Assembly: GCA_965261935.1 (NCBI GenBank)
Contig: OZ253485.1
Span: 106,832 to 170,831, forward strand
DNA length: 64,000 bases
Reading direction: 5' to 3'
Origin: Dehalococcoidia bacterium
Lineage (GTDB): Bacteria; Chloroflexota; Dehalococcoidia; Lucifugimonadales; G963668185
The position numbers were made by a program, and so were the translations under genes. Below, piece after piece: positions 2-57,375 of the stretch. Under the pieces are notes generated by a model. It was not told where the DNA came from, ran no database searches, and saw only the letters and a program-made list of their open reading frames with translations. Position 1 is the stretch's first letter, and every line of letters starts with the position of its first letter.

Positions 2-928
2 ATCAAGGAGGCCAGGAGCGCCACCGACGACATCGAGTCGGTCGTTCTGGTGCGCCTCGACGACGGCGGCCAGGTTGTCGACGGCAGCGAGACAGAGATC
101 GACTGCGACTCCGTTGTCCTCGCGATCGGCATGGTCCCGACGGTCGAGTTGCCGGCGCTGCTACAGTGCGAGCTGGCGTTCGACTCCGCGCGGGGCGGCT
201 GGGCGCCGGTGGTCGACGAGTGGATGCGCTCCAGCGTCGACAACGTGTTCATAGCCGGAGACGCCGCCGGCTTCAACGACGGCATGGTGACCAACCCCGC
301 GATCGCAGAGGCCCAGGGCCGCATCGCCGGCATCGCCGCTGCCGAGTCGCTCGGCGCCGTGGACAGCGCCACCGCCCACGCGAGGCGGTCGGAGCTTGCG
401 GCAGTCCTGGACGGTGCGGGAGCCTCAGAGGTGCACTCGCACTGGAAGCGTTGGATGCACGCGCTGATCAACGCGGGCGGCTTGGACGCTTACATCTGCC
501 AGTGTGAGGAGGTCACCAAGGGTGAGCTTCTCGACGTTTCGCCACCACGGTACCTGAAGTGGGAGTCGGAGCAGATGAGCGCGCGCAACTTGGGCACGCT
601 TCTGAACGACGGGCCTGTGAACCCTGACCAGGTCAAACGGCTAACTCGTGCGGGCATGGGACACTGCCAGGGCAGACGGTGCCGCGAGCACGTAATGATG
701 ATGCTCGCTGAAGAGTCGGGCACCGATCTGACGGAGGTCCCGATGATGAGCTATCGGCCTCCCGTACGCCCGCTGTCGCTGCGGGTGATGTGGCCGCACG
801 AGGAGACGCAGGAAACTCGGGACAACTGGGTTTCCTGGTTCCGCCAGCGCCGGCCGCTCTCGGACGAGGAGTTCGAGGAGCTGGTCGAGCAGAACAAGGG
901 CGTGATCCAGTCCCAGCAACAGGGCTGA
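2..928 (+). CDS. FAD/NAD(P)-dependent oxidoreductase, C-terminal part (5' end lies outside the window), with BFD-like [2Fe-2S]-binding cysteine motif (HcnB/OoxA/sarcosine-oxidase-alpha-like)
   Basis: The reading frame is open from nt 2 (IKEARSATDDIESVVLVRL...), so the listed 50..928 ORF is a truncated gene. It has a FIAGDAAG dinucleotide-fold motif. CQCEEVTKGEL ... AGMGHCQGRRC gives the C-x-C / C-x2-C pattern of BFD-like 2Fe-2S domains. Confidence 0.7.
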   Translation: MKEARSATDDIESVVLVRLDDGGQVVDGSETEIDCDSVVLAIGMVPTVELPALLQCELAFDSARGGWAPVVDEWMRSSVDNVFIAGDAAGFNDGMVTNPAIAEAQGRIAGIAAAESLGAVDSATAHARRSELAAVLDGAGASEVHSHWKRWMHALINAGGLDAYICQCEEVTKGELLDVSPPRYLKWESEQMSARNLGTLLNDGPVNPDQVKRLTRAGMGHCQGRRCREHVMMMLAEESGTDLTEVPMMSYRPPVRPLSLRVMWPHEETQETRDNWVSWFRQRRPLSDEEFEELVEQNKGVIQSQQQG

Positions 929-1079
929 AGCAGTTCGATAACGACCGGAAGATTGTGAGATGGGCGGGGCGGTCAGGTGACCGCCCCGCCGGCTTTCTGC
1001 GCTGGCAAGGGTCGCCTGTATCATGACCTCTTCGCAGTGGATTGACGTATGGTCTCCGCATTAGCAATCGAGGCTGTCA

Positions 1080-1766
1080 TTGAATGACATTGCCGCATGT
1101 GTGGGAAGGCAAGTTGTCATGATCCCCGCGATCGATCCGGAGGCCGACTACAAGGCACTGGTGAAGAGAGGCTACGATGCGTGCGCGAGGGCGTACGATG
1201 GGTCCCGAATCACTGAGCCGGGAACTGAGATACGCGGACTGTCAGACCGCCTGCAAGATGGCGACGCCGTGCTCGATGTTGGCTGTGGCGCTGGCGTCCC
1301 TGTCTCCAGGTGGCTGGCCTCACGCTGCCGCGTCACGGGAGTGGACGTCTCACAAGAGATGGTCCATTTAGCGCGCAGGAATGTACCGACTGGCGATTTC
1401 CTGTGCGCTGACATTATGTCGGTTCGCTATCCTCCAGACAGCTTTCATGCGGTGGTGGCGTTCTACTCCGTATTCCACCTTCCCAGAGAAGAGCACCCGG
1501 ACCTGTTTCGGAGGATCCATCGGTGGCTCAGGCCAGGCGGGCACATGCTGTGCACCCTGAGTTATTGCAATGAAGAGGGTTACACGGAGGAGGACTTCTT
1601 TGGGGCGACGATGTATTGGAGCAACTACAGCCTGGAGGAGTACCTGGAGATACTGAACGAAGTTGGATTCGTGCTGCTTGAGGTATGGTCCACGGCTGAC
1701 GGCTACGAGGAGTCGCCTCAGTATGGCATGGAGGACCATCCCCTGGTCCTGGCGAGAAAACCGTGA
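1080..1766 (+). CDS. Class I SAM-dependent methyltransferase
   Basis: Motif I is LDVGCGAGVP, followed by FHAVVAFYSVFHL and LRPGGHM, typical of the Methyltransf_11/25 fold. The listed start is TTG at 1080. An in-frame ATG at 1119 (MIPAIDPE...) is an equally plausible start. Confidence 0.8.
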   Translation: MNDIAACVGRQVVMIPAIDPEADYKALVKRGYDACARAYDGSRITEPGTEIRGLSDRLQDGDAVLDVGCGAGVPVSRWLASRCRVTGVDVSQEMVHLARRNVPTGDFLCADIMSVRYPPDSFHAVVAFYSVFHLPREEHPDLFRRIHRWLRPGGHMLCTLSYCNEEGYTEEDFFGATMYWSNYSLEEYLEILNEVGFVLLEVWSTADGYEESPQYGMEDHPLVLARKP

Positions 1767-1940
1767 TGGTTAATACCTCGAGCCGCTCTTCCAGCTACCG
1801 CGCGAAGCCGATAGTAATGATCTATGACATTTCGTTAGTTGACCCCACATATGAGGAAAAACTACGATGATGCCCTTCGAGGATCGTGCGTTGATCACAG
1901 TAAATTGGAAGAAAACTGAGCCGCAACGGAGGACGAGGCC

Positions 1941-3005
1941 ATGCCCAACTATGAACATCTGAAGAACCGCTTGGACCAGGGTGACGTGATCATCCTGGAT
2001 GGGGCAATCGGGACCGAGCTCCAGACAATGGGTGCCCCCATGGACCCGGCATCGTGGTGCGGCCCGGCCAACTACACGCACCCGGCAACCGTCCGCCTAA
2101 TGCATCAGCGCTACATCCGGGCGGGGGCAGACATCATAACCACCAACACGTTCAACACCATACGCCCTGCGCTGGAGGCGTCCGGTTACACCGACAAGGT
2201 GAGGGAGATAAACACGCGCGCAGTCGACGCGGCGATCGAAGCCAGAGACCGGGTTGCTGGCGATAGAGACGTTTACATCGCCGGCTCTATTGCGTGCCGG
2301 ACGCCCGTTCGCGACTCCAGGACCGGCACGCTGCAGGGTGGCACCGGCTACGGCTACGGCGCCAGCTTCTCGGCGCAGGAGTTACGAGCGTACGTAGACG
2401 AACAGGCCGAGGTCCTGGCCGAGTCCGGGGTTGACTTCTTTCTGATTGAGAACATGTGGGCCGACAACGAGTCCAGGGCGATTTCTACCGAGGCAGCCAA
2501 GGCCACGGGCCTGCCGGTCTGGGTGGCGTTCACAGCCTCAATGGCGCCGGACGGCCAGACCGTCAGGATGGACTTCGGAGGCACCCGCAACGCCTATAGC
2601 GGAGGCATGGGGATGCCTCTGTGGACTTCCGACTGGCGCCCGATCAACCATGAAATGACACTGGCGGAAGGCATGGCGGAAATCATCAGGCTGGAGCCGG
2701 ATGTGCTGGGCGTATTCCACGCTAGGATAGCCGCCACTACTGAGGCGCTGCGTGTCATGCTCGCGCAATGGTCCGGCCCCGTTGTTGCCTATCCTGACTC
2801 CGGTAGGGGGGACTTCATAGAGACCTGGCGCGACGCCAGCCTGACCAATGAAGAGTCTCCGGAGGACCTGATGCATGAGTCCGCCAAGTGGGTGGAAATG
2901 GGAGCACAGGTGATAGGCGGCTGCTGCGGGTTCGGCGCCGACTACATCGAGCCACTGCGCGGTGGCCTGCCGGGCCGCATCCCATCGCCGCGAGTAGCCG
3001 CGTAG
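1941..3005 (+). CDS. Homocysteine S-methyltransferase family protein (Hcy-binding domain; BHMT/MmuM-like)
   Basis: N-terminal ILDGAIGTELQ and C-terminal VIGGCCGFGADYIEPL (zinc-binding GGCCG signature). Full-length 354-aa ORF. Confidence 0.85.
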   Translation: MPNYEHLKNRLDQGDVIILDGAIGTELQTMGAPMDPASWCGPANYTHPATVRLMHQRYIRAGADIITTNTFNTIRPALEASGYTDKVREINTRAVDAAIEARDRVAGDRDVYIAGSIACRTPVRDSRTGTLQGGTGYGYGASFSAQELRAYVDEQAEVLAESGVDFFLIENMWADNESRAISTEAAKATGLPVWVAFTASMAPDGQTVRMDFGGTRNAYSGGMGMPLWTSDWRPINHEMTLAEGMAEIIRLEPDVLGVFHARIAATTEALRVMLAQWSGPVVAYPDSGRGDFIETWRDASLTNEESPEDLMHESAKWVEMGAQVIGGCCGFGADYIEPLRGGLPGRIPSPRVAA

Positions 3006-3143
3006 GCTTGCCTGGCGCAGAGCCAGGTTGCGTGTTTCACACCTTGAGTGGAACGGACAACGCCAGTCCGACTCGGTGGGACTAGCGCACAGTCCAAGCC
3101 TTCGCTGTGAGATGGCCGTCGGCATGTAACGGCCACCGGTGCG

Positions 3144-4367
3144 CTACTCTGCGCTTGCGCCGGCAGCCTTCAGCGTGTCCTCAACCCAGCGGTTGAACCA
3201 GTACGGCCCCGTTTCCTGGCGCGCAAACACGCTCTGGTTATGATGACGGCGTCCGCTCTCGATGCCCGACTGCTGCCACTCCACATTCTGCGCGTCCTGC
3301 AGGTTTGTGATCTGCCATAGCTCGTAGGCCCTCTTGGCATCGAAGTCGTCGCGCTCCATTGTCTCCGGCTCGAACAGGTAGTCCAACGTCAGTTGAAGCG
3401 TTGTCGGGCCCGTCGGAAGAAGCCGCTGCGTGTGCACGAAGTCTGGGTGCGACCTTATGAATAGGCTGGGTCGCATGATCGTGCCGTCCCTCGGGGTGTT
3501 CAGCTCCCTCTCGGTGAGCGTGCTAATCGGCGGTCCGCTGAGTTGGCCGTCCATCGTCCACGTTTTGCCGCCAGGTATGATGTCCGCCCCTCCGGAGAGC
3601 GACATCGTGTCGCCGCCGGACGATCTCCACTCCGGGTCCTGGCGAACGTCCGTTAGGCCCTTGGAGAAAATAGGCACCAGGCTGATCAGCTCCGGGTGAA
3701 CTGAAGGGCAGTGGAAACATTCCAGAAAGTTCTCGAACCACAGTTTCCAGTTCGCCTTTAGCTCAGCAACGTAGCGAAAGCCCAGCCGCAGGTCTTCCAG
3801 CCGGTAGTTCTTGAGCCTCTCCGGCGCGTCGCCGAGTGCGTCCCCCAGGGGCTCGGCCCGGTCACCGGCCAGGTTCACGAACACGAATCCGCCCCATTCA
3901 CCAACGGCTACGTCGTACAGTGAGTAGTCTTTCATTTCGAAGTCGGCAGACTCTAGCTGGTGCGGCGTCGCGATCAGGTCCCCCTCCAGCGAGTAGGTCC
4001 ACGCGTGGTACGGACAGACGATGGAGCCGCCTTCGAAGCGGCCCTCGTCCTGCGTGCACAGTATCGAGCCGCGGTGCCGGCACGTGTTGTGGAACGCTCG
4101 GACGTTGCCCCGCAGGTCCCTGGTTACGACGAGGTTCTGCCCGCCGATTGTGACGACCTTATAGTCCCTGGGAGAGGCCACCTCTTCCGAGCGACACGCG
4201 AAGATCCACATGCCGTACCAGAAGACGTCGAGCTCTTTGCGGTAGTGTTCCGGGTCGTAGTGCCAGCGACTAGGGAAGCTCTTGCCTGTCTCGTCGAGCA
4301 ACAGCGTTGGCCGACGCTCCGCGCTAACAGAAGTGGCTAGGTTTTCCAGCTTTGATTCCGAGTTCAA
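3144..4367 (-). CDS. Rieske [2Fe-2S] non-haem-iron oxygenase alpha subunit, paralog 1 (GbcA/CntA/Stc2-like)
   Basis: CRHRGSILC...CPYHAWTY Rieske motif. NWKLWFENFLECFHCPSVHPEL mononuclear-iron motif. The listed 602-aa ORF (to 4952) is a read-through of the out-of-frame 3' end of the upstream paralog. The most plausible start is the TTG at 4365-4367, which overlaps the TGA of paralog 2 and has GGAG about 10 nt upstream. The start is uncertain by a few codons. Confidence 0.85.
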   Translation of the reverse strand: MNSESKLENLATSVSAERRPTLLLDETGKSFPSRWHYDPEHYRKELDVFWYGMWIFACRSEEVASPRDYKVVTIGGQNLVVTRDLRGNVRAFHNTCRHRGSILCTQDEGRFEGGSIVCPYHAWTYSLEGDLIATPHQLESADFEMKDYSLYDVAVGEWGGFVFVNLAGDRAEPLGDALGDAPERLKNYRLEDLRLGFRYVAELKANWKLWFENFLECFHCPSVHPELISLVPIFSKGLTDVRQDPEWRSSGGDTMSLSGGADIIPGGKTWTMDGQLSGPPISTLTERELNTPRDGTIMRPSLFIRSHPDFVHTQRLLPTGPTTLQLTLDYLFEPETMERDDFDAKRAYELWQITNLQDAQNVEWQQSGIESGRRHHNQSVFARQETGPYWFNRWVEDTLKAAGASAE

Positions 4368-5599
4368 GGAGTGCTTGCTCCGTTCATCTTCTCCTGCACC
4401 CACTGGTTGAAGGCGTTGGGCCCCGTCTCCTGTATCGCGAACACGCTGCGATCGTGGACCCTGCGCCCGCCCTCGATGCCCGCCTGTTGCCATTCCACGT
4501 TTTGCGCGTCCTGCTGGTTCGTGATGTGCCACAGCTCGTACGCGCGCTTGGCTTCGAAGTCGTCGCGCTCCATCGTTTCCGGCTCGAACAGGTAGTCCCA
4601 CGTCAACTGGAGCGTGTTCGGACCGGTCGGCAGCAGACGCTGCGTGTGGACGTAGTCCGGGTGCGTGCTCATGAAAAGGCTGGGCCGCAGCACCGTACCG
4701 TTCACCGGATGCATGAGCTCCTGTTCGGTGAGCGTGCTGATCGGCGGGCCGCTCAGCTTGCCGTCCATCGTCCACGTCATGCCGCCTGGGATGATGTCCG
4801 CACCCACCAGCCTCATCGACTCTCCGCCGCTTGTCCGCCACTCCGGGTCCTGCCGCACATCCACGAGGCCCTTGGCATAGATCGGAACGAGGTTGATCAG
4901 TTCCGGGTGGACCTGCGGGCAGTGGAAGCACTCCGTGTAGTTCTCGAACCACAGCTTCCAGTTTGCCTTGAGTTCCGCGACGTACCGGAAGCCGAGGCGC
5001 AGGTCCTCCAGCCGGTAGTTACTGAGTCTCTGCGGCGCGTCGCCCAGCGCGTCTTCCAGCGGCTCCGCACGGTCGCCAGCGAGGTTCACGAACACCAGGC
5101 CGCCCCATTCGCCCACGGCCACGCCGTACAGCGAGTAGTCTTTCTTGTCGAAGTCGGCCGACTCCAGCTGGTGCGGTGTCGCGATCAGATCGCCCTCCAG
5201 CGAGTATGTCCACGCGTGGTACGGGCAGACTATCGATCCGCCCTCGAACCGTCCGGCGTCCCGTGTGCACAGGATGGAGCCCCGGTGCCGGCACGTGTTA
5301 TGGAACGCTCGGACGTTGCCCTTAAGATCCCGGGTGATGACGACGTTCTGGTCGCCAATGGAGACAACCTTGTAGTCCCTGGCCGAGGCGACTTCCTCGG
5401 AGCGGCACGCGTAGATCCACATGCTGTACCAGAAGATATCGAGTTCCTTCCGGTGGTGGTCGGGGTCGAAGTGCCAGTGGTTCGGGAAGCTCTTCCCCAT
5501 GCCTTCCAGCAGCTCCAGTGGCCGAATCGACGCGCTTGAAGACCGCACCTCGATCTGGTCGCCATAGACGGTGCCACAGCAATCGCTCTGCTGCGTCAT
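4364..5599 (-). CDS. Rieske non-haem-iron oxygenase alpha subunit, paralog 2
   Basis: CRHRGSILC...CPYHAWTY; NWKLWFENYTECFHCPQVHPEL; 411 aa. Closest by eye to paralogs 1 and 8 (VNLAGDRAEPL segment). Confidence 0.9.
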   Translation of the reverse strand: MTQQSDCCGTVYGDQIEVRSSSASIRPLELLEGMGKSFPNHWHFDPDHHRKELDIFWYSMWIYACRSEEVASARDYKVVSIGDQNVVITRDLKGNVRAFHNTCRHRGSILCTRDAGRFEGGSIVCPYHAWTYSLEGDLIATPHQLESADFDKKDYSLYGVAVGEWGGLVFVNLAGDRAEPLEDALGDAPQRLSNYRLEDLRLGFRYVAELKANWKLWFENYTECFHCPQVHPELINLVPIYAKGLVDVRQDPEWRTSGGESMRLVGADIIPGGMTWTMDGKLSGPPISTLTEQELMHPVNGTVLRPSLFMSTHPDYVHTQRLLPTGPNTLQLTWDYLFEPETMERDDFEAKRAYELWHITNQQDAQNVEWQQAGIEGGRRVHDRSVFAIQETGPNAFNQWVQEKMNGASTP

Positions 5600-5644
5600 T
5601 CGTGTACCTCCCTTGGTCTTCCCCCTGCCCCTGGCGTTTCGCGG

Positions 5645-6862: not shown

Positions 6863-6895
6863 TAACGCCGCGCACTCCGTTCGGCCCGCTGCCGC

Positions 6896-8103: not shown

Positions 8104-8169
8104 GCGTGTCTCCTCTCTGCTCGCTGGATATCCCGCTCACGCCGCGCACTCCGTTCGGCCCGCTGCCGC

Positions 8170-9381: not shown

Positions 9382-9449
9382 GCAGGTCTCCTTTCTGTTC
9401 GCTGCGTCTCCTGCTCACGCCGTGACGAAGGTGCCCGGACGGCCCGGGT

Positions 9450-10661: not shown

Positions 10662-10732
10662 CTGATAACCTCCGTCGCCGGCTCGACCGCTTTTCGTACG
10701 ATTGCCACTCTTTCCTTTACGTCATTCCGTGC

Positions 10733-11938
10733 TTACGAATCGCGCCTCCGCACCGTGTGCCCGGCCGACTCCATGACCTCCATCACCCAGTTGTTGAACT
10801 GGTGCGGTCCCGTCTCCTGCGGTACGAACACACTGTACTCGTGGTGCTTGCGGCCGCCCTCGATTCCCGCCTGCTGCCACTCGACGTTCTGCGCGTCCTG
10901 CAGGTTCGTGATGTGCCACAGCTCGTACCCGCGCTTGGCATCGAAATCGTCGCGCTCCATCGTCTCAGGCTCGAACAGGTAGTCCCACGTCAGTTGCACC
11001 GTCGTCGGGCTCGTGGGAATCATCTGCTGAGTGTGGACGTAGTCCGGGTGCGCAACGAAGAAGAAGTTCGGCCTGAGCTGCATCCCACCGATGGTGCAGT
11101 TCGCCTCTTCTTCCGTCAGGCCGCTGAACGCGGGGCCGCTGAGCTGGCCGTCCATCGTCCACGTCCTGCCGCCCGGTATGATGTCCGAGCCGCCGTGCAG
11201 CAGCATCGTTTCCCCGCCGGACGGCTTCCACTCCGGGTCCTCCCTGACGTCGCCTAGTCCCTTGGAGTAAATCGGCACAATACTGATGAGCTCGGGGTGG
11301 ACCTGCGGGCAGTGGAAGCACTCGCTGTAGTTCTCGAACCACAGCTTCCAGTTCGCCTTGACCTCATGGACGTACCGGAAACCCAGCTTAAGCCTCTCTG
11401 GGTGGTAGTTCTTGAACTTCAGCGGAGTGTCACCCAGCGACTTTTCGAGCGGCTCGGCCTCTTCCGGCGTGAGGTTAACGAACACGAAGCCGCCCCACTC
11501 GCCGACTGCCGCCTCGTAAAGTGAGTAAGCTTTCATGTCGAAATCGGCCGACTCAAGCTGGTGCGGCGTGGCGATCAGCTTCCCTTCCAGCGAGTACGTC
11601 CACGCGTGGTACGGACACACGATGGAGCCGCCCTCGAACCGCCCCTCGTCCTGCGTGCACAGGATCGAACCGCGGTGTCGGCACGTGTTATGGAACGCTC
11701 TCAGGTTGCCCCGCAGGTCCCTGGTGACGACGATGTTCTGCTCGCCAATGGATACGACCTTGTAGTCCCGGGGCGAGGCGACCTCATCCGACCTGCAGAC
11801 GTTGATCCACATCCGATACCAGAACGTCTCCAGTTCCTTCCTGTAGTGTTCCGGGTCGTAGTGCCAGCTGTTCGGAAAGCTGGGTTCCAGCTTGTCCAGC
11901 ACCACGCGCGATCTCTGGTCGTAGTCGTACACTTGCAT
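10733..11938 (-). CDS. Rieske non-haem-iron oxygenase alpha subunit, paralog 7
   Basis: Same motifs; 401 aa. Confidence 0.9.
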   Translation of the reverse strand: MQVYDYDQRSRVVLDKLEPSFPNSWHYDPEHYRKELETFWYRMWINVCRSDEVASPRDYKVVSIGEQNIVVTRDLRGNLRAFHNTCRHRGSILCTQDEGRFEGGSIVCPYHAWTYSLEGKLIATPHQLESADFDMKAYSLYEAAVGEWGGFVFVNLTPEEAEPLEKSLGDTPLKFKNYHPERLKLGFRYVHEVKANWKLWFENYSECFHCPQVHPELISIVPIYSKGLGDVREDPEWKPSGGETMLLHGGSDIIPGGRTWTMDGQLSGPAFSGLTEEEANCTIGGMQLRPNFFFVAHPDYVHTQQMIPTSPTTVQLTWDYLFEPETMERDDFDAKRGYELWHITNLQDAQNVEWQQAGIEGGRKHHEYSVFVPQETGPHQFNNWVMEVMESAGHTVRRRDS

Positions 11939-11992
11939 CTCTGGGACCTCCTGCCTGTTCTGGGCCGCGTGTTGCTATTTGCTGGCAAGTAG

Positions 11993-13171
11993 TTAGATTG
12001 CCCCGGCCTCCTTGAGCTTGTCCGCCACCCACCTGTTGAATCGCCACGGTCCCTGTTCGTTAGATACGAACACGCTCTCCTTGTGCACGTTTCGCCCGGC
12101 CATGAGCCCGGCCTGCTGCCACTCCACGTTCTGGGCGTCCTGCAAGTTCGTGATGTGCCATAGCTCGTATGCGCGCTTGGCGTCGAAGTCCTCGCGCTCC
12201 ATCGTCTCCGGCTCGAACAGGTAGTCCCACGTTATCTCGACCGTGGACGGACTCGTGGGCAGCATGCGCTGTGTGTGAACGTAGTCCGGGTGCATGTTCA
12301 GGAAGAAGCTCGGTCTGAGCATGCCGCCGTTCTGCGGACTGTCCAGCTCGTGTTCATTGAGGCCGCTGAGCGCCGGTCCGCTCAACTGACCGTCCATGGT
12401 CCAGGTCTTCGCGCCGGGGATGATGTCCAGCTCCCTGACCATCGTGTCGCCGCCGGTGCCTTCCCAGTCGCGAGCGAAGCCCCCGTCCAGCGCCAGTGCA
12501 TAGATCGGCACAACGGCGCACAGCTCCGGGTGGACCTGCGGGCAGTGGAAGCACTCCATGTAGTTCTCGAACCACAGCTTCCAGTTCGTCTTGATCTCGG
12601 CTACGTACCTGTATCCCAGGCGCAGGTCCTCAGTACGGTAGTTGGCGAACCGTTCCGGGAAGTCGCCGAGTACGTTTTCCAACGGCTCGGCCTTATCCCC
12701 CGCCAGGTTCACGAACACGAAGCCGCCCCACTCGCCGACGGCCACGCCGTACAGCGAGTAGTCTTTCATGGCGAAGTCGGCCGACTCCAGCTGGTGTGGC
12801 GTCGCGATCAGGCCGCCCTCCAGCGAGTAGGTCCACGCATGGTACGGGCAGACAATCGACCCGCCTTCGAAGCGGCCCTCGTCCTGGGTGCACAAGATGG
12901 AGCCCCGGTGCCGGCAGGTGTTGTGGAACGCGCGGACGTTGCCCTTGAGGTCCCTGGTGACAATGACGTTCTGATCGCCTATGGAGACGACTTTGTAGTC
13001 CCTCGGTGAGGCAACGTCCTCAGAGCGGCACGCGTACATCCACATGCTGTACCAGAAGACGTCCAATTCCTTCCGGTGGTGCTCCGGGTCGTAGTGCCAG
13101 TGGTTGGGGAAGCTCGATTCCAGGTGGCCGATGGCTGCTGGACTGTTAGCAAATGACTGCCGCGTTAGCAT
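11993..13171 (-). CDS. Rieske non-haem-iron oxygenase alpha subunit, paralog 8
   Basis: CRHRGSILC...CPYHAWTY; NWKLWFENYMECFHCPQVHPEL. Divergent segment after the Fe site (VVPIYALALDGGFARDWEGTGG). Confidence 0.9.
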   Translation of the reverse strand: MLTRQSFANSPAAIGHLESSFPNHWHYDPEHHRKELDVFWYSMWMYACRSEDVASPRDYKVVSIGDQNVIVTRDLKGNVRAFHNTCRHRGSILCTQDEGRFEGGSIVCPYHAWTYSLEGGLIATPHQLESADFAMKDYSLYGVAVGEWGGFVFVNLAGDKAEPLENVLGDFPERFANYRTEDLRLGYRYVAEIKTNWKLWFENYMECFHCPQVHPELCAVVPIYALALDGGFARDWEGTGGDTMVRELDIIPGAKTWTMDGQLSGPALSGLNEHELDSPQNGGMLRPSFFLNMHPDYVHTQRMLPTSPSTVEITWDYLFEPETMEREDFDAKRAYELWHITNLQDAQNVEWQQAGLMAGRNVHKESVFVSNEQGPWRFNRWVADKLKEAGAI

Positions 13172-13211
13172 GGCGCGTTACCTCCGCTCGGGTGCAGTTT
13201 CGGCTATGTTA

Positions 13212-13251
13212 GACGAAAACGCGCGGCCCCGCCATGCGTCGGCGGGGCCGC
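13212..13251 (-). terminator. Candidate Rho-independent terminator downstream of paralog 9
   Basis: On the minus strand: GCGGCCCCGCC - GACGCAT - GGCGGGGCCGC (11-bp perfect GC stem, plus-strand 13223-13233 / 13241-13251), followed by GCGTTTTCGTCT. Confidence 0.6.
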
Positions 13252-13279
13252 TGTTCAGTCCTTTCGGATGTGCAGTCGG

Positions 13280-14500
13280 CTAGTACCTGGTGTCCCCGCC
13301 GTAGTCCGGGTCGGTCTCCTCGCCGAGCCGCTCCAGCACCCACTGGTGGAAGCGCCAGGGCCCAATCTCCTGGGGCACGAAGGTGCAGTGATCGGCCTCC
13401 CGGCTGGCCAGTCCCTCCTGCTGCCACTTGCAGTTCTGGGCGTCTTGCCGGTTGGTGATGTCCCACAAATCGACCATCTTGTCGATGTCGAAGTCCGGCC
13501 TCTCCATGGAAGACGGCTCGAACAGCCAGTCGTACACCATCTGTACGCTGGTCGGGCCTGTGGGCAGCATCCGGTGAGTGTGAATGAAGTCAGGGTGGAT
13601 GTTGATAAACAGGTTGGGCCTGAGCACGGACGCAGTGTAGCCGGTGCTCCGTTCCTCCTCGGTGAGGTCGCGGAAGAAGGGCACGTTCGTGGTGCCGTCC
13701 ATGGTGAGGGTCACCTTGCCGGGCGCCAACCGCTGCGTTCGGCTCATCGTCTGGCCGCCCGTAGGCTCGAAGTCCTTGCCTTGCTCCATTAGCATCATGC
13801 CGTCGTCTTTCTGACGGTCGCTGAGCAGTCCCTCGCCGTAGATCGGGATCACGTCACACAACTCCGGATGGACCCCCGGGCAGTGGAAGCACTCCGAGAA
13901 GTTCTCGAACAGCAGCTTCCAGTTGGCCTCCACGTCGATGACGATCCGCTTGCCCAGCTTCAACTCTTCCATGTGGTAGTTCTGAAGTCGGGCAGGGGTG
14001 TTGCCCAGCGTATGCTCGAGCGGTTCCGCGTTAGCGCCGGCGAAATTCACGAAGATGTACCCGGCCCACTCTCCCACGGCCACCCCGTACAGCGAATACT
14101 CGTTCATGTCGAAGTCTGCCGACTCCAACTGATGCGGCGTGGCGATCAGGCTGCCCTCCAGCGAGTAGGTCCATGCGTGGTAGGGGCAGACCACCGAACC
14201 GCCCTCGAACCGGCCCGACTCCTCCGTGCACAGGATGGATCCGCGGTGCCGGCAGGTGTTGTGGAACGCGCGCAGCACACCCTTGAGGTCCCTGGTGATG
14301 ACGCAGCTCTGTTCGCCGACGGTGAAGACTTTGTAGTCCCTGGGCGACGCCACCTCCTCGGCCCGGCAAGCGTACACCCACATGTCGTACCAGAAAACGT
14401 CCAGTTCTTTTTGGTGCTGCTCAGGATCGTAGAAGTAACGGTATGGAAGTCCGTTCTTGATCTGCCTGAGTATCGATGGACCCGCAAATTGAGCCTGCAT
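13280..14500 (-). CDS. Rieske non-haem-iron oxygenase alpha subunit, paralog 9 (most divergent)
   Basis: CRHRGSILC...CPYHAWTY; NWKLLFENFSECFHCPGVHPEL. It has a longer insertion after the Fe site (GEGLLSDRQKDDGMMLMEQGKDFEPTGGQTMSRTQRL). Confidence 0.9.
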   Translation of the reverse strand: MQAQFAGPSILRQIKNGLPYRYFYDPEQHQKELDVFWYDMWVYACRAEEVASPRDYKVFTVGEQSCVITRDLKGVLRAFHNTCRHRGSILCTEESGRFEGGSVVCPYHAWTYSLEGSLIATPHQLESADFDMNEYSLYGVAVGEWAGYIFVNFAGANAEPLEHTLGNTPARLQNYHMEELKLGKRIVIDVEANWKLLFENFSECFHCPGVHPELCDVIPIYGEGLLSDRQKDDGMMLMEQGKDFEPTGGQTMSRTQRLAPGKVTLTMDGTTNVPFFRDLTEEERSTGYTASVLRPNLFINIHPDFIHTHRMLPTGPTSVQMVYDWLFEPSSMERPDFDIDKMVDLWDITNRQDAQNCKWQQEGLASREADHCTFVPQEIGPWRFHQWVLERLGEETDPDYGGDTRY

Positions 14501-14615
14501 ATTCCCTCCTGGTCGTGTGCGCTGCCTTCGGTATATGGTGCGCCGATGATTGAATACAGGCGCGTAACGCGATTCTAGTTGCCAATTCAGTCCACTGCAA
14601 CACTAAAACTCATTG

Positions 14616-14640
14616 GTTACTCCACGTGCTGGGGAGTAAC
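14616..14640. promoter_or_regulatory. Candidate operator: 8-9-8 inverted repeat in the divergent paralog-9 / MFS intergenic region
   Basis: GTTACTCC-acgtgctgg-GGAGTAAC, about 45 bp upstream of the MFS start at 14686. GTAAC pentamers recur nearby (cgcGTAACgcg, tcGTAACaac). Confidence 0.3.
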
Positions 14641-14685
14641 ATTGCTTCTTCGTAACAACAGGGGCGGCGTAAACGGAGAGGTAGG

Positions 14686-15960
14686 ATGACAAGCCGGTCC
14701 CAATCCCCGGCCCAGAGGGCTTCTCAGCCGCGGCGAAGGCTGTTCGTAGCCTTCAGCATAAAGGGCTATGTCTGGTTCTGGGCCAGCATGTTCTGGTCGG
14801 CCGCCGGGATGAGCGGCCGGATGCTCGCCCAGGGCTGGCTCGTCGTCGACCTGACGGACGAGAGCGGCGCCAGCGCGCCGCTATGGCTCGGCATCCTTTC
14901 TGCGGTCCGCGCCATCGGCAGCACTTTCCTGTCGCCCATCGGTGGCGTAATTATCGACAGATTCGACCGCCGCTTACTGCTGGTCGCGCTGCAGACGTTC
15001 AACATGACCACCAGCCTTGTGCTGGGGACCCTCGTTATCATGGATTGGGTGCAGATGTGGCACCTGATAGTCATCTCGCTGCTTCAGGGCATCATCATGG
15101 CTATCAGCATGCCGACCCGCAACGCGGTCACGTTCGACCTCGCGGGTCGCGAGAGCCTGATGAATGCGATGTCCGCCAACTACCTGGCTTCGGACGTCAT
15201 GCGCATAGCGAGCCCTGTGATTGCCGGTGTGATCACGGACCTTGCGGGCACCGGCGGGGCGTTCTTCTTCCTCGCAAGCTCGTTCATCGTCGCAACCTAC
15301 TGCATTCTTCGGCTGCCGCGCACTGAAATGAAGCCCAGACCCCGCCGCTCCGTTTGGTTAAGCCTGACGGAAGGCGCCTCTTACGCATGCCGCAACAGGA
15401 ACATGCGAATGATCATGGTCATGGACATACTCATGTCATGCTTCGCTTACAGCTCGCAACTCATGCTTCCCTTCTTCGCGAGGGAGGTCCTGGGTGTCAG
15501 CGCGACGGGGCTAGGTGTCCTAATGGGAGTTATGGGTGTCGGGTCCCTGATGACCGGCGTGCTTATCGCAAGCTCCGCCAGCCTGAAGCCCACGCACGCA
15601 CGTTACCTGGTGGCCTCCCTGGGATACTCGGCGATGGTGATCGGGTGGGCCGTGTCGCCGTGGTTCGCGCTTGCGGCCTTGTTCCTCTTCCTGAATGGAA
15701 TGGCCTCGGGCGGGTTCAACTCACTGTCTTCTTCCCTCATACAGGTTGTTTCTTCTGAGGAGTACCGCGGAAGGATGATAGGTTTGCAGGGCCTCACCTG
15801 GGGAACGATGTCACTCGGAGGAATGGCCATAGGGGGCGCTGCCACCTTCGTCAGCATAACCTTTGCGCTGTCGGGGCTCGCGGCCATTCCCGCTCTCCTT
15901 TCGGTGGTCTATCTTGTCAGGGCGAAGCAGTACTCTACCGATCCCGAGGATCAGGGCTGA
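14686..15960 (+). CDS. MFS transporter
   Basis: 424 aa with multiple hydrophobic spans. The N-terminal FxxxFxxxxxxWFWASMFWSAAG... layout is typical of MFS_3/EntS-like transporters. Confidence 0.8.
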   Translation: MTSRSQSPAQRASQPRRRLFVAFSIKGYVWFWASMFWSAAGMSGRMLAQGWLVVDLTDESGASAPLWLGILSAVRAIGSTFLSPIGGVIIDRFDRRLLLVALQTFNMTTSLVLGTLVIMDWVQMWHLIVISLLQGIIMAISMPTRNAVTFDLAGRESLMNAMSANYLASDVMRIASPVIAGVITDLAGTGGAFFFLASSFIVATYCILRLPRTEMKPRPRRSVWLSLTEGASYACRNRNMRMIMVMDILMSCFAYSSQLMLPFFAREVLGVSATGLGVLMGVMGVGSLMTGVLIASSASLKPTHARYLVASLGYSAMVIGWAVSPWFALAALFLFLNGMASGGFNSLSSSLIQVVSSEEYRGRMIGLQGLTWGTMSLGGMAIGGAATFVSITFALSGLAAIPALLSVVYLVRAKQYSTDPEDQG

Positions 15961-16047
15961 CCCGCCCCTCTTACGGGCCCATCTGCTGACGGCGGCGGTT
16001 CCGCTTAGTAGCATAAGTAGACGCACTAAATTTCCGGAGGTGTTCCC

Positions 16048-16383
16048 ATGCCGGCAGGACAAGTCTTCGCGATTGCCGACCTCATGGCGCAGCAGAGCGA
16101 GAGCGAAGGGTTCTGGTACGAGTTTCTCCGTGTACCGAGGATGTACTGCGGCCTCTACGTGTTGCCCGCCGGGACCAAAGACCCACAGCAGCCCCACGCG
16201 GACGACGAGGTCTACTACGTCGTGAAAGGGCGCGGCGTCATACAGGTGGAAGGGGACAACATGCCGTTGCAGGAGGGCAGCGTCGCGTACGTCGCCGCGG
16301 ACGCCAAGCACCACTTCCACTCCATCACCGAAGACCTGATCCTATTAGTCTTCTTCGAGGCATCCGGAAGCTCGGAAGGGTAG
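16048..16383 (+). CDS. Cupin domain protein
   Basis: 111 aa. PHADDEVYYVVKGRG...EGSVAYVAADAKHHFHS is a cupin_2 two-motif pattern. Confidence 0.75.
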   Translation: MPAGQVFAIADLMAQQSESEGFWYEFLRVPRMYCGLYVLPAGTKDPQQPHADDEVYYVVKGRGVIQVEGDNMPLQEGSVAYVAADAKHHFHSITEDLILLVFFEASGSSEG

Positions 16384-16497
16384 GGAAGTACGCAAGTCGT
16401 GCGTTGCCCATAGGCGGCCCCGATCTTACACTGTGACATCCACGACCAAGAAGGCTTTGCGAGATGTGGCCGCTAGTTGACGGGCGTCGGAGGGACC

Positions 16498-16961: not shown

Positions 16962-17046
16962 GTACTGCCTGTCCGCAACTACGTGAGCTGCGTGCTTCGG
17001 ACGCTACGCACTGGCCATAGCTGAGTCGAGGCTGGAAAACTAGGCA

Positions 17047-17181: not shown

Positions 17182-17282
17182 GGAAGTACGCGGGCCTGGC
17201 AGTGCCCTTCGGCAGCGCCGCTCTCATGCAAAGCACTTGCGGTTCAGCCATTATTGCCGGCCACAAGTGTGTGGTGTATGGT

Positions 17283-57357: not shown

Positions 57358-57375
57358 AGTAGGACCTCCGCTGTT

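What the first reader, a model, noticed from the sequence alone, without database searches (positions are those of the whole stretch)
2..16383. No cognate reductase for the Rieske array; the flanks suggest a methyl-group/one-carbon context
Characterised members of this oxygenase clade need a dedicated FNR-type / plant-ferredoxin reductase (GbcB, CntB). No such gene occurs in the 64-kb window.

The only nearby redox partner candidate is the truncated flavoprotein at 2-928, which carries a BFD-like [2Fe-2S] motif (CQC...CQGRRC). Between it and the array lie a SAM-dependent methyltransferase and a homocysteine S-methyltransferase (GGCCG zinc site). The latter uses methylated donors such as betaines or S-methylmethionine. 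An MFS transporter and a cupin follow on the other side.

One hypothesis is an uptake, oxidative-demethylation and methyl-salvage locus for diverse methylated osmolytes, with electrons supplied by an unconventional or distally encoded reductase.
Basis: inference. Interest (0 to 1): 0.6.

Follow-up and report, generated by a model that had tools for sequence, protein, structure and literature searches.

The report
Nine tandem amine-type Rieske oxygenases, no reductase
A marine Dehalococcoidia genome carries nine side-by-side copies of an oxygenase related to the enzymes that break down betaines and carnitine, and this whole enzyme sub-family, here and in about 90 other loci, is encoded without the electron-donor gene that its studied relatives always have next door.

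Summary
Window 3144-14500 (minus strand) carries nine tandem Rieske oxygenase alpha genes, one of them frameshifted. No FNR-type reductase, class-II reductase or ferredoxin occurs in any frame of the 64 kb.

The oxygenases carry all the group V (quaternary-ammonium) hallmarks and are closest to Stc2, GbcA and CntA. They form their own sub-family, with F or Y at the CntA-Y203 signature position on a scaffold closer to Stc2.

The missing reductase is a trait of the whole sub-family, not of this locus. It was found in 0 of 89 loci. The same YeaX query finds the reductase beside stc2 on pSymA (E 2e-17).

The flanking flavoprotein belongs to the SoxA/OoxA alpha family. Together with the adjacent homocysteine methyltransferase it is orthologous to a cassette conserved in Chloroflexota: S-methyl_trans, alpha, then a DAO beta subunit. 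That cassette occurs without any Rieske gene.

The flanks lie on the opposite strand and vary among close relatives. The methylated-amine context is therefore supported at pathway level only, and the flavoprotein is at best a weak reductase candidate.

The most likely electron source is a shared carrier encoded elsewhere. Overall this is a new variant of a known kind, of moderate interest.

The parts
2..928 (+). C-terminal 308 aa of a 536-aa NAD(H)/FAD/[2Fe-2S] flavoprotein of the SoxA-N / OoxA / HcnB / L-proline-dehydrogenase-alpha family. The gene runs off the window start.
   Evidence: Pfam Pyr_redox_2, SO_alpha_A3 and Fer2_BFD. The full-length orthologue L001:9317-10927 has GAGVAG (FAD), GSGNLG..E (NADH) and Cys394/396/450/455. 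Best PDB matches are 2gag_A SoxA alpha (E 2e-11) and 1y56_A. It is 63% identical to the alpha subunit of the L013 cassette.
1080..1766 (+). Class-I SAM-dependent methyltransferase of generic type. It is an accessory gene, present in L003 and absent in L001 and L002.
   Evidence: Pfam Methyltransf_25/11. NCBIfam gives only sub-threshold hits. blastn presence or absence in relatives is.
1941..3005 (+). Homocysteine S-methyltransferase-family protein of the 'cassette type'. A His stands where the first zinc-ligand Cys normally is, and the GGCCG motif is retained.
   Evidence: PF02574, 166 bits. It falls below all NCBIfam equivalog cut-offs. It aligns to MmuM 5dml and BHMT 1umy. It is 71-73% identical to the S-methyl_trans of L012 and L013. 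GVFH is conserved in the cassette type, whereas other paralogues keep Cys.
3144..4367 (-). R1, Rieske oxygenase alpha paralogue. The proposed TTG start overlaps the R2 stop; the longer ORF reaching 4952 is spurious.
   Evidence: Pfam Rieske and Ring_hydroxyl_A.
4364..5599 (-). R2, Rieske oxygenase alpha paralogue.
5645..6862 (-). R3, Rieske oxygenase alpha paralogue (R3-R7 subgroup).
6896..8103 (-). R4, Rieske oxygenase alpha paralogue interrupted by a frameshift near nt 7814. It is a probable pseudogene or an assembly error.
   Evidence: The Rieske half (7738-8103) and the catalytic half (6896-7699) are in different frames.
8170..9381 (-). R5, Rieske oxygenase alpha paralogue.
   Evidence: It is 97% nt identical to its L001 counterpart.
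9450..10661 (-). R6, Rieske oxygenase alpha paralogue.
   Evidence: R6 and R7 are 93% identical at protein level, with dS 0.42 and dN/dS 0.10.
10733..11938 (-). R7, Rieske oxygenase alpha paralogue.
11993..13171 (-). R8, Rieske oxygenase alpha paralogue.
13223..13251 (-). Terminator-like hairpin (12-bp stem, 11 G-C pairs, T-rich tail) between R9 and R8. It suggests that R9 is a separate transcription unit from R8-R1.
   Evidence: This is a consensus scan only; the total number of such sites does not exceed that in shuffled sequence.
13280..14500 (-). R9, the most divergent paralogue (55-57% identical to the others). Its pocket signature is shared with widespread homologues, so it is the probable ancestral type.
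14501..14685 (.). 185-bp divergent intergenic region between R9 and the MFS gene. It is the only place where array and flank could share regulation.
   Evidence: Coordinates. No promoter-like match was found there.
14686..15960 (+). MFS_3 (EntS/DHA3-like) transporter, transcribed divergently from R9.
   Evidence: Pfam MFS_3 and MFS_1. NCBIfam 2A0121 and EntS hits are sub-threshold.
16048..16383 (+). Small cupin (111 aa) of unknown function.
   Evidence: Pfam Cupin_2. The DMSP_lyase hit is below the gathering score.

Best explanation
The array is a lineage-specific tandem expansion of an alpha-only Rieske non-haem-iron oxygenase.

What is shown:
- There are nine copies, eight of them intact. 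They are old duplicates under purifying selection.
- The enzyme belongs to the amine / quaternary-ammonium ('group V') branch of the family, together with Stc2, GbcA and CntA.
- It forms a distinct sub-family, with an aromatic F or Y at the cation-pi position of CntA (Y203) on a scaffold closer to Stc2.
- This sub-family is never encoded next to a reductase.
- The plus-strand flavoprotein and homocysteine methyltransferase beside the array are a separate unit. They are a rearranged copy of a conserved Chloroflexota cassette (S-methyl_trans, SoxA/OoxA-like alpha, DAO/SoxB-like beta), and here the beta gene is not adjacent.

What is inferred:
- Each enzyme would work like its relatives. Electrons enter the Rieske [2Fe-2S] cluster of one subunit, cross the conserved bridging Glu to the His-His-Asp iron of the neighbouring subunit in a trimer, and O2 is used to hydroxylate a carbon next to a charged nitrogen. 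This gives N-dealkylation or C-N cleavage.
- The paralogues differ at predicted pocket positions, so each probably takes a different amine or betaine.
- The electrons come in trans from a shared electron-transfer protein or proteins encoded elsewhere, such as a general ferredoxin/NAD(P)H reductase pair. Plant choline monooxygenase, another group Va enzyme, uses the general ferredoxin pool (my own knowledge), and multi-oxygenase sphingomonads share one ferredoxin/reductase set (my own knowledge).
- The cassette function (methyl transfer from a betaine-type donor to homocysteine, then oxidation of the N-methyl product) follows from its domain content and its similarity to BHMT and sarcosine-oxidase subunits; it was not tested.
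- The neighbourhood is therefore a methylated-amine catabolic island at pathway level, not one operon and not a self-contained oxygenase system.
For: Family assignment:
- The best NCBIfam model is GbcA (180-205 bits), against 65-97 bits for the anthranilate, benzoate and phenylpropionate dioxygenase models.
- The best PDB relatives are Stc2 3vca/4qup and 3n0q (E 1e-46 to 1e-47), then CntA (E 1e-32 to 1e-34). Aromatic dioxygenases score E 1e-27 or weaker.
- All nine copies keep the Rieske C/H/C/H ligands, the bridging Glu, the group V Cys-x-x-Cys pair, His-His-Asp and Stc2-W353. The Y203 position is F or Y. Motif definitions come from PMC7948474 and PMC10952381.
- All 82 Rieske genes in 80 metagenome loci also have F or Y, never N.
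- In an NJ tree the sub-family sits apart from Stc2+3n0q and CntA+YeaW. R1-R8 and R3-R7 are each monophyletic in 50 of 50 bootstraps.

Selection and turnover:
- dN/dS is 0.10-0.36 with dS 0.4-1.45.
- The R3-R7 subgroup has 1 to 5 copies among four related genomes.

Orphan status:
- No YeaX-like, HcaC-like or HcaD-like gene and no ferredoxin motif occurs in the window.
- None occurs in 8 other annotated loci of homologues.
- None occurs in 80 JGI loci, with about 487 kb of flank and 37 loci having at least 5 kb of flank.
- The positive control on pSymA stc2 worked, and E. coli yeaW-yeaX are adjacent.

Amine context:
- The commonest neighbours in metagenome loci are a PotD/F-like binding protein (14 loci, median 58 bp away), an ABC ATPase and a class-III aminotransferase.
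- Marine and Chloroflexota loci carry S-methyl_trans, alpha, DAO and peptide-type ABC genes.

Cassette identity of the flank.

Strand layout.
Against: - No substrate or activity is known for any member of this sub-family.
- The trans-acting donor is inferred from absence. I could not search the rest of the genome for FNR-type reductases or ferredoxins, because the genome-collection scan, the protein searches and the contig look-ups were exhausted.
- Monophyly of the sub-family has weak bootstrap support (16 of 50).
- Mapping of pocket positions beyond CntA residue ~225 rests on a sequence alignment of diverged C-terminal domains.
- An alpha flavoprotein lies within 10 kb of the Rieske gene in 4 of 9 marine or Chloroflexota loci. 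In one of these it forms a tight alpha-beta-Rieske string. This is more than the 'unrelated neighbour' reading would predict and leaves room for the rival below.
- Many metagenome contigs are short, so 'no reductase nearby' is strong only for the 37 loci with at least 5 kb of flank.
Confidence: 0.55

Rival explanations
1. The SoxA/OoxA-like alpha flavoprotein (NADH to FAD to BFD-type [2Fe-2S]) is the physiological electron donor of this orphan Rieske sub-family. In alpha-beta-Rieske strings, electrons taken from the N-methyl amine product by the DAO beta subunit, or from NADH, would pass through alpha to the oxygenase. In the window lineage, alpha has lost beta and serves the nine-gene array alone.
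For: - Alpha is the only redox protein beside the array, and it is intact in all four related genomes (92-94% protein identity). In the same genomes the HMT next to it is frameshifted (L001) or absent (L002), and no DAO partner is detectable in the window or L001-L003.
- An alpha-like gene lies within 10 kb in 4 of 9 marine or Chloroflexota loci of the sub-family. One of these reads alpha(513 aa)-DAO(386 aa)-Rieske(404 aa) on one strand, with a 4-nt overlap and then a 23-bp gap.
- Alpha keeps both dinucleotide motifs and four cluster cysteines.
- The window-lineage alpha is at the divergent edge of its family (62% identity against a median of 73%) and has a C-terminal extension of about 25 aa.
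- From my own knowledge, NirB-type nitrite reductases use a Pyr_redox_2 plus BFD-like [2Fe-2S] module as an NADH electron-input device, so the chemistry is feasible.
Against: - No alpha-like gene occurs in any of 80 metagenome loci of the same sub-family.
- The alpha family is conserved with S-methyl_trans and DAO in three sampled Chloroflexota loci (L011-L013) that have no Rieske gene nearby.
- In the window, alpha is on the opposite strand, converging on the array.
- Its structural relatives are subunits of amine dehydrogenases and oxidases. Rieske-oxygenase reductases score only E ~3e-4 (rubredoxin reductase), and HcaD gives no hit.
- Sequential steps of one pathway explain the co-location equally well.
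- The four genomes that share alpha-array adjacency are close relatives, so they count as one observation.
Confidence: 0.18
2. The array is an ordinary aromatic ring-hydroxylating dioxygenase expansion for aromatic DOM or sponge metabolites, as RHD (COG4638) expansions in SAR202 have been read in the literature. The methyl and amine flavour of the flanks is coincidence.
For: - Saw et al. 2020 (PMC6946804) describe COG4638 alpha-subunit expansions of up to 62 copies, few beta subunits and an aromatic-substrate interpretation in SAR202, including a sponge symbiont. Bayer et al. 2018 (PMC6306507) report ring-hydroxylating dioxygenases among aromatic-degradation genes in sponge Chloroflexi genomes.
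- Pfam names the catalytic domain 'Ring_hydroxyl_A'.
- An F or Y near the iron could also stack on an aromatic ring, as the MMV12 inhibitor does in CntA.
Against: - Sequence scores rank Stc2, GbcA and CntA far above any aromatic dioxygenase.
- The Cys-x-x-Cys pair described as a group V peculiarity is present in all copies.
- No beta subunit, no dihydrodiol dehydrogenase and no ring-cleavage gene occurs in the window.
- Recurring neighbours are amine and polyamine-type transporters, aminotransferases, S-methyl_trans and DAO.
Confidence: 0.08
3. The flanks and the array have no functional link at all. The flavoprotein/HMT pair, the MFS gene and the cupin simply happen to border a mobile, fast-evolving gene array.
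For: - The strands are opposite.
- The content between alpha and the array varies in L001-L003.
- The cassette occurs without a Rieske gene elsewhere.
- Alpha, DAO and S-methyl_trans genes are each found at more than one locus in these marine Chloroflexota assemblies, so chance proximity may be common; their genome-wide copy numbers were not counted.
- Only 2 of 80 metagenome loci have an HMT gene.
Against: Independent loci at 48-51% Rieske identity again combine Rieske, alpha, DAO, S-methyl_trans and a peptide-type ABC transporter (L006, L008, the P0078 locus). One of them is an operon-like string.
Confidence: 0.15

Closest known systems
Stachydrine (proline betaine) demethylase Stc2 and the glycine betaine monooxygenase oxygenase subunit GbcA/BmoA (group Vb Rieske oxygenases)
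   Same: - They are the best sequence relatives (Stc2/3n0q E ~1e-46; the GbcA model is the top NCBIfam hit).
- They are alpha-only enzymes of about 400 aa.
- The Rieske ligands, bridging Glu, Cys-x-x-Cys pair, His-His-Asp triad and Stc2-W353 are all conserved.
   Different: - Identity is only about 30%, and GbcA model scores are 180-205 bits against an equivalog cut-off of 670.
- The Vb signature Asn is replaced by F or Y.
- Stc2 has an FNR-type reductase gene immediately downstream, and GbcA/BmoA are paired with GbcB/BmoB (literature). This sub-family has none in 89 loci.
Carnitine monooxygenase CntA / E. coli YeaW with reductase CntB / YeaX (group Va)
   Same: - It shares the aromatic residue at the cation-pi position (Y203 in CntA; F is also functional there, PMC7948474).
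- It shares the Cys pair, the bridging Glu and the iron ligands.
- The Rieske halves are 31-35% identical.
   Different: - It is more distant overall than Stc2 (E 1e-32 against 1e-46).
- The C-terminal pocket residues of CntA (Y225, N270, Y295, F319) are mostly not conserved.
- yeaW-yeaX are adjacent, whereas no YeaX-like gene occurs here.
COG4638 ring-hydroxylating-dioxygenase alpha-subunit expansions reported in SAR202 Chloroflexota (Saw et al. 2020, mBio)
   Same: - The closest relatives of the window are Dehalococcoidia MAG chromosomes of 2.8-3.2 Mb. That this lineage is SAR202 is my inference from the match to Saw et al. and was not tested.
- There are many alpha-only Rieske paralogues and few or no beta subunits.
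   Different: - That work read the expansion as aromatic catabolism and did not address electron donors or tandem organisation.
- Here the tandem copies carry group V (amine / quaternary ammonium) hallmarks.
- Only part of the reported expansions need belong to this sub-family; this was not tested.
Heteromeric SoxA/SoxB-, OoxA/OoxB-, HcnB/HcnC- and L-proline-dehydrogenase-type amine dehydrogenases (for the flanking flavoprotein)
   Same: - The domain order is Pyr_redox_2 followed by BFD-like [2Fe-2S] / SO_alpha_A3.
- The best PDB hits are the SoxA alpha subunit and PH1363.
- Orthologues sit next to a DAO-family beta gene in L011-L013, L008 and the P0078 locus.
   Different: - In the window lineage no DAO beta gene is adjacent.
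- The protein has a C-terminal extension and is at the divergent edge of its family.
- It lies beside the Rieske array instead.
Betaine-homocysteine / S-methylmethionine-homocysteine methyltransferases (BHMT, MmuM) and the MtgE module of split methionine synthase
   Same: It has the PF02574 fold, the DG(A/G) homocysteine motif, the GGCCG zinc motif and a Trp aligned with BHMT W44.
   Different: - It falls below all NCBIfam equivalog cut-offs.
- The first zinc Cys is replaced by His in the whole cassette-type family.
- The methyl donor is unknown. PMC12478193 shows that some 'Bhmt' proteins are really MtgE modules, so a betaine donor cannot be assumed.

Membership tests
Rieske non-haem iron oxygenase, alpha subunit | Rieske [2Fe-2S] motif C-x-H ... 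C-x-x-H | tested here: met
   CRHRG...CPYH is present in all nine copies; in R4 it spans the frameshift.
Rieske non-haem iron oxygenase, alpha subunit | 2-His-1-carboxylate iron site plus a bridging carboxylate between the Rieske and iron centres | tested here: met
   E-C-x-H-C-P-x-V-H and the later Asp align with CntA E205, H208, H213 and D323 and with Stc2 H204, H209 and D360.
Group V (quaternary-ammonium) Rieske oxygenases | Cys-x-x-Cys pair flanking the first iron His (CntA C206/C209; Stc2 C202/C205) | tested here: met
   It is present in R1-R9, in all sampled homologues, and in 82 of 82 genes in metagenome loci through the N-[FY]-x-E-C-x-H-C pattern. The definition is from PMC10952381.
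Group V (quaternary-ammonium) Rieske oxygenases | Closer to CntA, Stc2 and GbcA than to group I-IV aromatic oxygenases | tested here: met
   phmmer against the PDB and NCBIfam rankings. In the NJ tree rooted on HcaE they cluster with Stc2, 3n0q, CntA and YeaW.
Group V (quaternary-ammonium) Rieske oxygenases | Substrate is a quaternary ammonium compound | not testable with these tools
   This needs an enzyme assay. It is only supported indirectly, by the aromatic cation-pi residue and by amine-type neighbours.
Group V two-component systems (GbcAB, CntAB, BmoAB, HpbBC, Stc2 + reductase) | Dedicated FNR-type reductase with a plant-type [2Fe-2S] domain encoded next to the oxygenase | tested here: not met
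   No YeaX-like hit in the window (best E 4.7) or in the 8 other annotated loci. No hit at E <= 0.1 in 80 metagenome loci. The positive control on pSymA gave E 2e-17.
Group Vb demethylases (GbcA / BmoA / Stc2) | Asn at the position of CntA Y203 | tested here: not met
   The residue is F in R1, R3, R4, R5 and R9 and Y in R2, R6, R7 and R8. Stc2 and 3n0q have N.
Group Vb demethylases (GbcA / BmoA / Stc2) | Score above the NCBIfam GbcA equivalog cut-off (NF058607, 670 bits) | tested here: not met
   The five paralogues scanned (R1, R2, R3, R5, R9) score 180-205 bits.
Group Va (CntA, choline monooxygenase, OxyBAC) | Aromatic residue (Y or F) at position 203 for the cation-pi contact | tested here: met
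   The definition is from PMC7948474.
Group Va (CntA, choline monooxygenase, OxyBAC) | Clusters with CntA rather than with Stc2 | tested here: inconclusive
   Overall similarity is higher to Stc2. In the NJ tree the sub-family groups with neither: 'with CntA' 10 of 50 bootstraps, 'with Stc2' 0 of 50, own clade 16 of 50.
SoxA/OoxA/HcnB-type alpha subunit of heteromeric amine dehydrogenases (flavoprotein 2-928) | Pyr_redox_2 FAD/NAD fold followed by a BFD-like [2Fe-2S] / SO_alpha_A3 domain | tested here: met
SoxA/OoxA/HcnB-type alpha subunit of heteromeric amine dehydrogenases (flavoprotein 2-928) | Adjacent DAO-family beta subunit gene | tested here: not met
   tblastn with four DAO beta queries finds nothing in the window or L001-L003. 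The feature is met in the homologous loci L008, L011-L013 and the P0078 locus. A distal beta gene cannot be excluded; one search was uninformative.
Homocysteine S-methyltransferase (PF02574) | Pfam domain above the gathering score | tested here: met
   166.5 bits against a cut-off of 22.
Homocysteine S-methyltransferase (PF02574) | Three-Cys zinc site (one Cys plus the vicinal Cys-Cys) | tested here: inconclusive
   The vicinal Cys-Cys (GGCCG) is present. The first Cys aligns to His (GVFH) in the window, L003, L012 and L013. His could still bind zinc; this was not tested.

The most novel reading that the evidence does not exclude
A large, previously undescribed branch of the quaternary-ammonium Rieske oxygenases has dispensed with the dedicated FNR-type reductase. 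At least in marine Chloroflexota, it would be wired instead to a SoxA/OoxA-like NADH-FAD-[2Fe-2S] flavoprotein. In alpha-beta-Rieske strings, oxidation of the partly demethylated amine by the DAO subunit would pay directly for the next oxygenation. In this genome, an alpha that has lost its beta partner would serve a nine-gene array acting on different host- or DOM-derived betaines.
Probability: 0.15. Interest if true: 0.8.

Novelty: new variant of a known kind. Interest (0 to 1): 0.5.

Why it matters
- Rieske alpha-subunit expansions are one of the signature traits used to argue that SAR202-type Chloroflexota degrade refractory, aromatic dissolved organic matter. If tandem sets like this one are amine or betaine oxygenases, part of that argument shifts. 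It would point towards nitrogen-rich methylated osmolytes, which are abundant in sponges and plankton.
- The family-wide lack of a reductase gene also sets a concrete biochemical question: what reduces a group V Rieske oxygenase when no GbcB- or CntB-type partner exists?
- Two testable candidates follow. One is a shared ferredoxin system. The other is the SoxA/OoxA-like flavoprotein.
- The practical consequence for annotation is that these genes are labelled 'aromatic ring-hydroxylating dioxygenase subunit alpha' or 'glycine betaine catabolism A'. The first label is contradicted by the residues examined here; the second names an equivalog whose cut-off these proteins do not reach.

Tried and rejected
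- **Exact-sequence look-up.** The window HMT is not on record, and the best Rieske match in the 5.8-billion-protein collection is 91%. Upstream sequence therefore had to be inferred from relatives L001-L003.
- **Search for a distal DAO beta orthologue.** I looked for contig-length signatures in a DAO search. It was uninformative, because the 120 listed hits are all at least 77% identical and none comes from the related chromosomes.
- **A degraded reductase in the ORF-poor stretch 16.4-19.7 kb.** Rejected. The stretch holds a VapBC pair, and no YeaX similarity was found.
- **The cupin as a DMSP lyase.** Rejected as unsupported. The score is 22.7 bits against a cut-off of 27, and the metal motif H-A-D-D-E does not fit.
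- **Rfam and tRNA scans of the window.** Nothing was found.
- **The 602-aa ORF 3144-4952.** Rejected as the R1 gene, because its first ~200 codons overlap R2 in another frame.
- **First tree attempt.** It timed out. The faster NJ run resolves the paralogue groups but not the deep order of the three group V branches.
- **Promoter and terminator scans.** The counts do not exceed those in shuffled sequence, so only the one strong hairpin is mentioned.
- **Shadow ORFs.** Overlapping-frame ORFs in high-GC DNA first dominated the neighbour clustering and were filtered out.

Full report
**What is there**

The first 16.4 kb of the window hold three groups of genes.
- On the plus strand: the 3' part of a flavoprotein gene (2-928), a SAM methyltransferase (1080-1766) and a homocysteine S-methyltransferase-family gene (1941-3005).
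- On the minus strand: nine head-to-tail Rieske oxygenase alpha genes, here called R1-R9. Their coordinates are 3144-4367, 4364-5599, 5645-6862, 6896-8103, 8170-9381, 9450-10661, 10733-11938, 11993-13171 and 13280-14500.
- On the plus strand again: an MFS_3 transporter (14686-15960) and a small cupin (16048-16383).

Further details of the array:
- R4 is split by a frameshift near nt 7814, in a sequence that is not a homopolymer.
- The paralogues are 55-93% identical at protein level.
- Pairwise dS is 0.4-1.45 and dN/dS is 0.10-0.36. They are therefore old duplicates kept under selection.
- Gaps inside the array are at most 108 bp.
- A strong terminator-like hairpin (13223-13251) separates R9 from R8-R1.

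**Where it comes from**

The flavoprotein fragment finds three complete Dehalococcoidia MAG chromosomes of 2.8-3.2 Mb at 92-94% protein identity. These are L001 (OZ250142.1), L002 (OY764162.1) and L003 (OZ220745.1). The window genome itself is not in the protein collection.

The rest of the window carries sulfatase, GFO/IDH/MocA, BatA/MoxR/VWA and SAM-cycle genes.

Saw et al. 2020 reported large expansions of COG4638 Rieske alpha subunits in SAR202 Chloroflexota. These reach up to 62 copies in a 3.22-Mb sponge symbiont genome and were read as aromatic catabolism. That the window is from this group is an inference, not something I tested.

**Is a reductase really missing?**

Yes, within what can be seen.
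- Pfam scans of the GC3-supported candidate ORFs of at least ~110 aa in the 64 kb, plus selected smaller ORFs in 16.8-19.3 kb, show no FAD_binding_6/NAD_binding_1/Fer2 protein and no ferredoxin.
- tblastn with E. coli YeaX (the CntB orthologue, taken from the yeaW-yeaX locus) gives nothing better than E = 4.7 in the window and nothing significant in L001-L009.
- HcaC and HcaD, the class-II ferredoxin and reductase, give no hit at E <= 1e-4 in the window or in about 95 related loci.
- A six-frame motif scan finds no plant-type, adrenodoxin-type or 4Fe-4S ferredoxin signature.
- The method works. On S. meliloti pSymA the same YeaX query detects the reductase directly downstream of stc2, at 25% identity and E 2e-17.
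- Upstream of nt 1, by proxy, L001 and L003 show 9.3 kb of housekeeping genes before the flavoprotein.

**What kind of Rieske oxygenase?**

The best NCBIfam model is the glycine betaine monooxygenase subunit GbcA, but at 180-205 bits against a 670-bit cut-off. The anthranilate, benzoate and phenylpropionate dioxygenase models score 65-97 bits.

The best solved relatives are Stc2 (3vca/4qup) and 3n0q at E ~1e-46, then CntA at ~1e-32. Aromatic dioxygenases score 1e-27 and weaker, and no VanA- or DdmC-type chain appears among the 47 matches at E <= 1e-3.

I rebuilt the CntA, Stc2 and 3n0q sequences from the printed alignments and checked them against published residue numbers. I then aligned them with R1-R9. 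All nine copies keep:
- the Rieske ligands;
- the bridging Glu (CntA E205);
- the Cys-x-x-Cys pair that Quareshy et al. describe as a peculiarity of group V;
- the His-His-Asp iron ligands;
- Stc2-W353.

At the position that separates Va from Vb, all nine copies have F or Y. Va enzymes (CntA, choline monooxygenase, OxyBAC) have Y or F there, which makes a cation-pi contact with the ammonium group. Vb enzymes (GbcA, BmoA, Stc2) have Asn.

The same holds for every sampled homologue and for 82 of 82 genes in 80 metagenome loci.

In an NJ tree the sub-family sits apart from both Stc2+3n0q and CntA+YeaW, although its monophyly has weak support (16 of 50). R1-R8 and R3-R7 are each solid clades (50 of 50). 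R9 pairs with a widespread type.

'GbcA/CntA clade' is nevertheless too coarse. These proteins are neither GbcA equivalogs nor CntA orthologues, and whether they demethylate or cleave is open.

**The orphan state is a family trait**

I looked at the surroundings of homologues at 45-60% identity:
- L006, L007, L008 and L009;
- L014 from a Casimicrobiaceae MAG, and L015;
- the P0078 locus and L016.

None has an FNR-type or class-II partner.

A scan of JGI metagenomes returned 80 more loci at 34-53% identity to R9. They hold about 487 kb of flanking DNA, and 37 loci have at least 5 kb of flank. They contain no YeaX-like sequence even at E <= 0.1 and no credible ferredoxin motif.

Clustering of neighbouring ORFs shows what does recur beside the gene:
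- a PotD/PotF-like solute-binding protein (14 loci, median 58 bp away);
- an ABC ATPase with a TOBE domain;
- a class-III aminotransferase.

These are amine-type neighbours, not aromatic-pathway genes.

**What the flanks are**

The full flavoprotein (L001:9317-10927, 536 aa) has an FAD motif, an NADH motif and four cysteines for a BFD-type [2Fe-2S] cluster. Its solved relatives are the alpha subunit of heterotetrameric sarcosine oxidase and the alpha subunit of Pyrococcus L-proline dehydrogenase. Rieske-oxygenase reductases are not among its close relatives.

Its family is strongly conserved, at 58-67% identity to more than 100 clusters, among which the few that carry a source name are called Dehalococcoidia or Chloroflexi.

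In three sampled loci the homologue sits in a cassette with no Rieske gene nearby:
- DAO then alpha (L011);
- S-methyl_trans, then alpha, then DAO (L012 and L013).

The window flavoprotein is 63% identical to the L013 alpha. The window methyltransferase is 71-73% identical to the L012 and L013 methyltransferases. The two plus-strand genes are therefore a rearranged copy of that cassette. No DAO beta gene is detectable in the window or in L001-L003.

The cassette-type methyltransferase has His where MmuM and BHMT have the first zinc cysteine.

Among the close relatives, flank content varies:
- the SAM methyltransferase is absent in L001 and L002;
- the homocysteine methyltransferase is frameshifted in L001 and absent in the L002 locus;
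- the flavoprotein is intact in all four genomes.

**Is the flavoprotein the missing donor?**

The evidence points both ways.

For:
- It is the only redox protein beside the array.
- It has the right cofactors.
- It has lost its usual partner here.
- It is somewhat divergent and carries an extension.
- An alpha-like gene lies within 10 kb of the Rieske gene in 4 of 9 marine or Chloroflexota loci. One of these is a tight alpha-DAO-Rieske string. Another reads Rieske, alpha, DAO, ABC transporter, S-methyl_trans.

Against:
- None of 80 metagenome loci has an alpha gene.
- The cassette occurs without a Rieske gene in the three loci sampled.
- The gene converges on the array from the other strand.
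- Consecutive steps of one pathway explain the co-location as well. In that reading the oxygenase or the methyltransferase acts on the quaternary amine, and the alpha-beta dehydrogenase acts on the N-methyl product.

I rate this reading at about 0.15-0.2. I keep as the main explanation a shared donor encoded elsewhere. That is what other multi-oxygenase genomes and plant choline monooxygenase do (my own knowledge, not tested here).

**Array dynamics**

The R3-R7 subgroup has five copies in the window, at least three in L001, two or three in L003 and one in L002. R5 is 97% nt identical to its L001 counterpart, while its neighbours are 82-90% identical.

Predicted pocket columns differ between the paralogue groups. 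R9 shares its pattern with widespread homologues. This fits diversification of substrate range from an R9-like ancestor. The mapping of C-terminal pocket columns is alignment-based only.

**Verdict**

Group V affinity, the absence of a reductase and a methylated-amine neighbourhood all hold.
- The neighbourhood is not an operon.
- The flavoprotein belongs to a different, well-conserved module.
- 'Demethylation' and 'uptake' are not established.
- The more general result is that a large group-V-like sub-family is encoded without a reductase across 89 loci, and that it forms a nine-gene tandem array in a Dehalococcoidia genome.
- This is a new variant of a known kind, of moderate interest. One higher-interest reading remains open.

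Noticed in passing
window 6896-8103 (junction near 7814): R4 is split into a Rieske half and a catalytic half by a frameshift in the sequence GACACGCG, which is not a homopolymer. It is either a young pseudogene inside an otherwise selected array or an assembly error.
   Followed up: partly
window 13223-13251, minus strand: There is a 12-bp, G+C-rich hairpin with a T-rich tail between R9 and R8. R9, the ancestral-type copy, may be transcribed separately from R8-R1.
   Followed up: no
window 1941-3005; also L003:11988-13052, L012:6860-7921, L013:6893-7951: The cassette-type homocysteine methyltransferase has GVFH where MmuM and BHMT have the first zinc-ligand Cys (GINC). Other S-methyl_trans paralogues in L006 and L008 keep the Cys. 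This is a conserved His-Cys-Cys variant of the zinc site.
   Followed up: partly
window 8170-9381 versus L001:19637-20840: R5 is 97% nt identical to its counterpart in L001, while the flavoprotein and the other paralogues are 82-90% identical. This may reflect recent exchange or unusually strong constraint on this one copy.
   Followed up: no
L001:11256-12322; L002 locus: The homocysteine methyltransferase next to the array is frameshifted in L001 and absent in L002, where other ORFs (7003-7725 and 7995-9563, the latter with no Pfam hit, the former not scanned) fill the gap. The SAM methyltransferase is present only in the window and L003.
   Followed up: partly
JGI 3300047160 contig (P0078 locus, no DNA held); L008:10001-14553: Operon-like strings join the same Rieske sub-family to a SoxA/OoxA-like alpha and a DAO beta subunit. 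One reads alpha-DAO-Rieske with a 4-nt overlap and then a 23-bp gap. The other reads Rieske, alpha, DAO, ABC transporter, S-methyl_trans.
   Followed up: partly
L017-L096 (80 JGI metagenome loci): In these metagenome loci, at 34-53% identity to R9, the commonest direct neighbour of this Rieske sub-family is a PotD/PotF-like binding protein (14 loci, median 58 bp away). An ABC ATPase with a TOBE domain and a class-III aminotransferase also recur. LeuA is adjacent in 11 loci.
   Followed up: partly
window 16400-19700: This ORF-poor stretch follows the cupin. Its only recognisable genes are a VapB/VapC toxin-antitoxin pair (17202-17884). No RNA family or tRNA was found.
   Followed up: partly
window 16048-16383: The cupin gives a weak, sub-threshold DMSP_lyase Pfam hit (22.7 bits against a cut-off of 27). 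Its metal motif reads H-A-D-D-E instead of the usual HxH...E.
   Followed up: partly
window 42842-43408: A single 188-aa ORF carries both a BrnT toxin domain and a BrnA antitoxin domain. It may be a fusion, or two genes merged by my choice of ORF.
   Followed up: no
window 37329-38513 and 44217-47183: An IS481-type transposase and an Eco57I-like type IIG restriction-modification ORF are present. The latter lies beside a G+C dip (0.53 at 46-48 kb, against about 0.61 elsewhere). Mobile or acquired DNA therefore lies downstream of the array.
   Followed up: no
window 50166-58239: This is a SAM-cycle cluster on the minus strand. It holds a second MFS_3 transporter, phosphoglucomutase, MetK, AhcY, a PfkB kinase, rhodanese and MTA phosphorylase. 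It fits the methyl-group theme but lies 36 kb from the array, and these genes are ordinarily housekeeping.
   Followed up: no
window 35868-36611; L007:1747-2664 and 3707-4570: PhyH- and TauD-type Fe/2-oxoglutarate dioxygenase genes occur in the window and near a Rieske homologue in L007. They may represent further oxidative amine or betaine chemistry.
   Followed up: no
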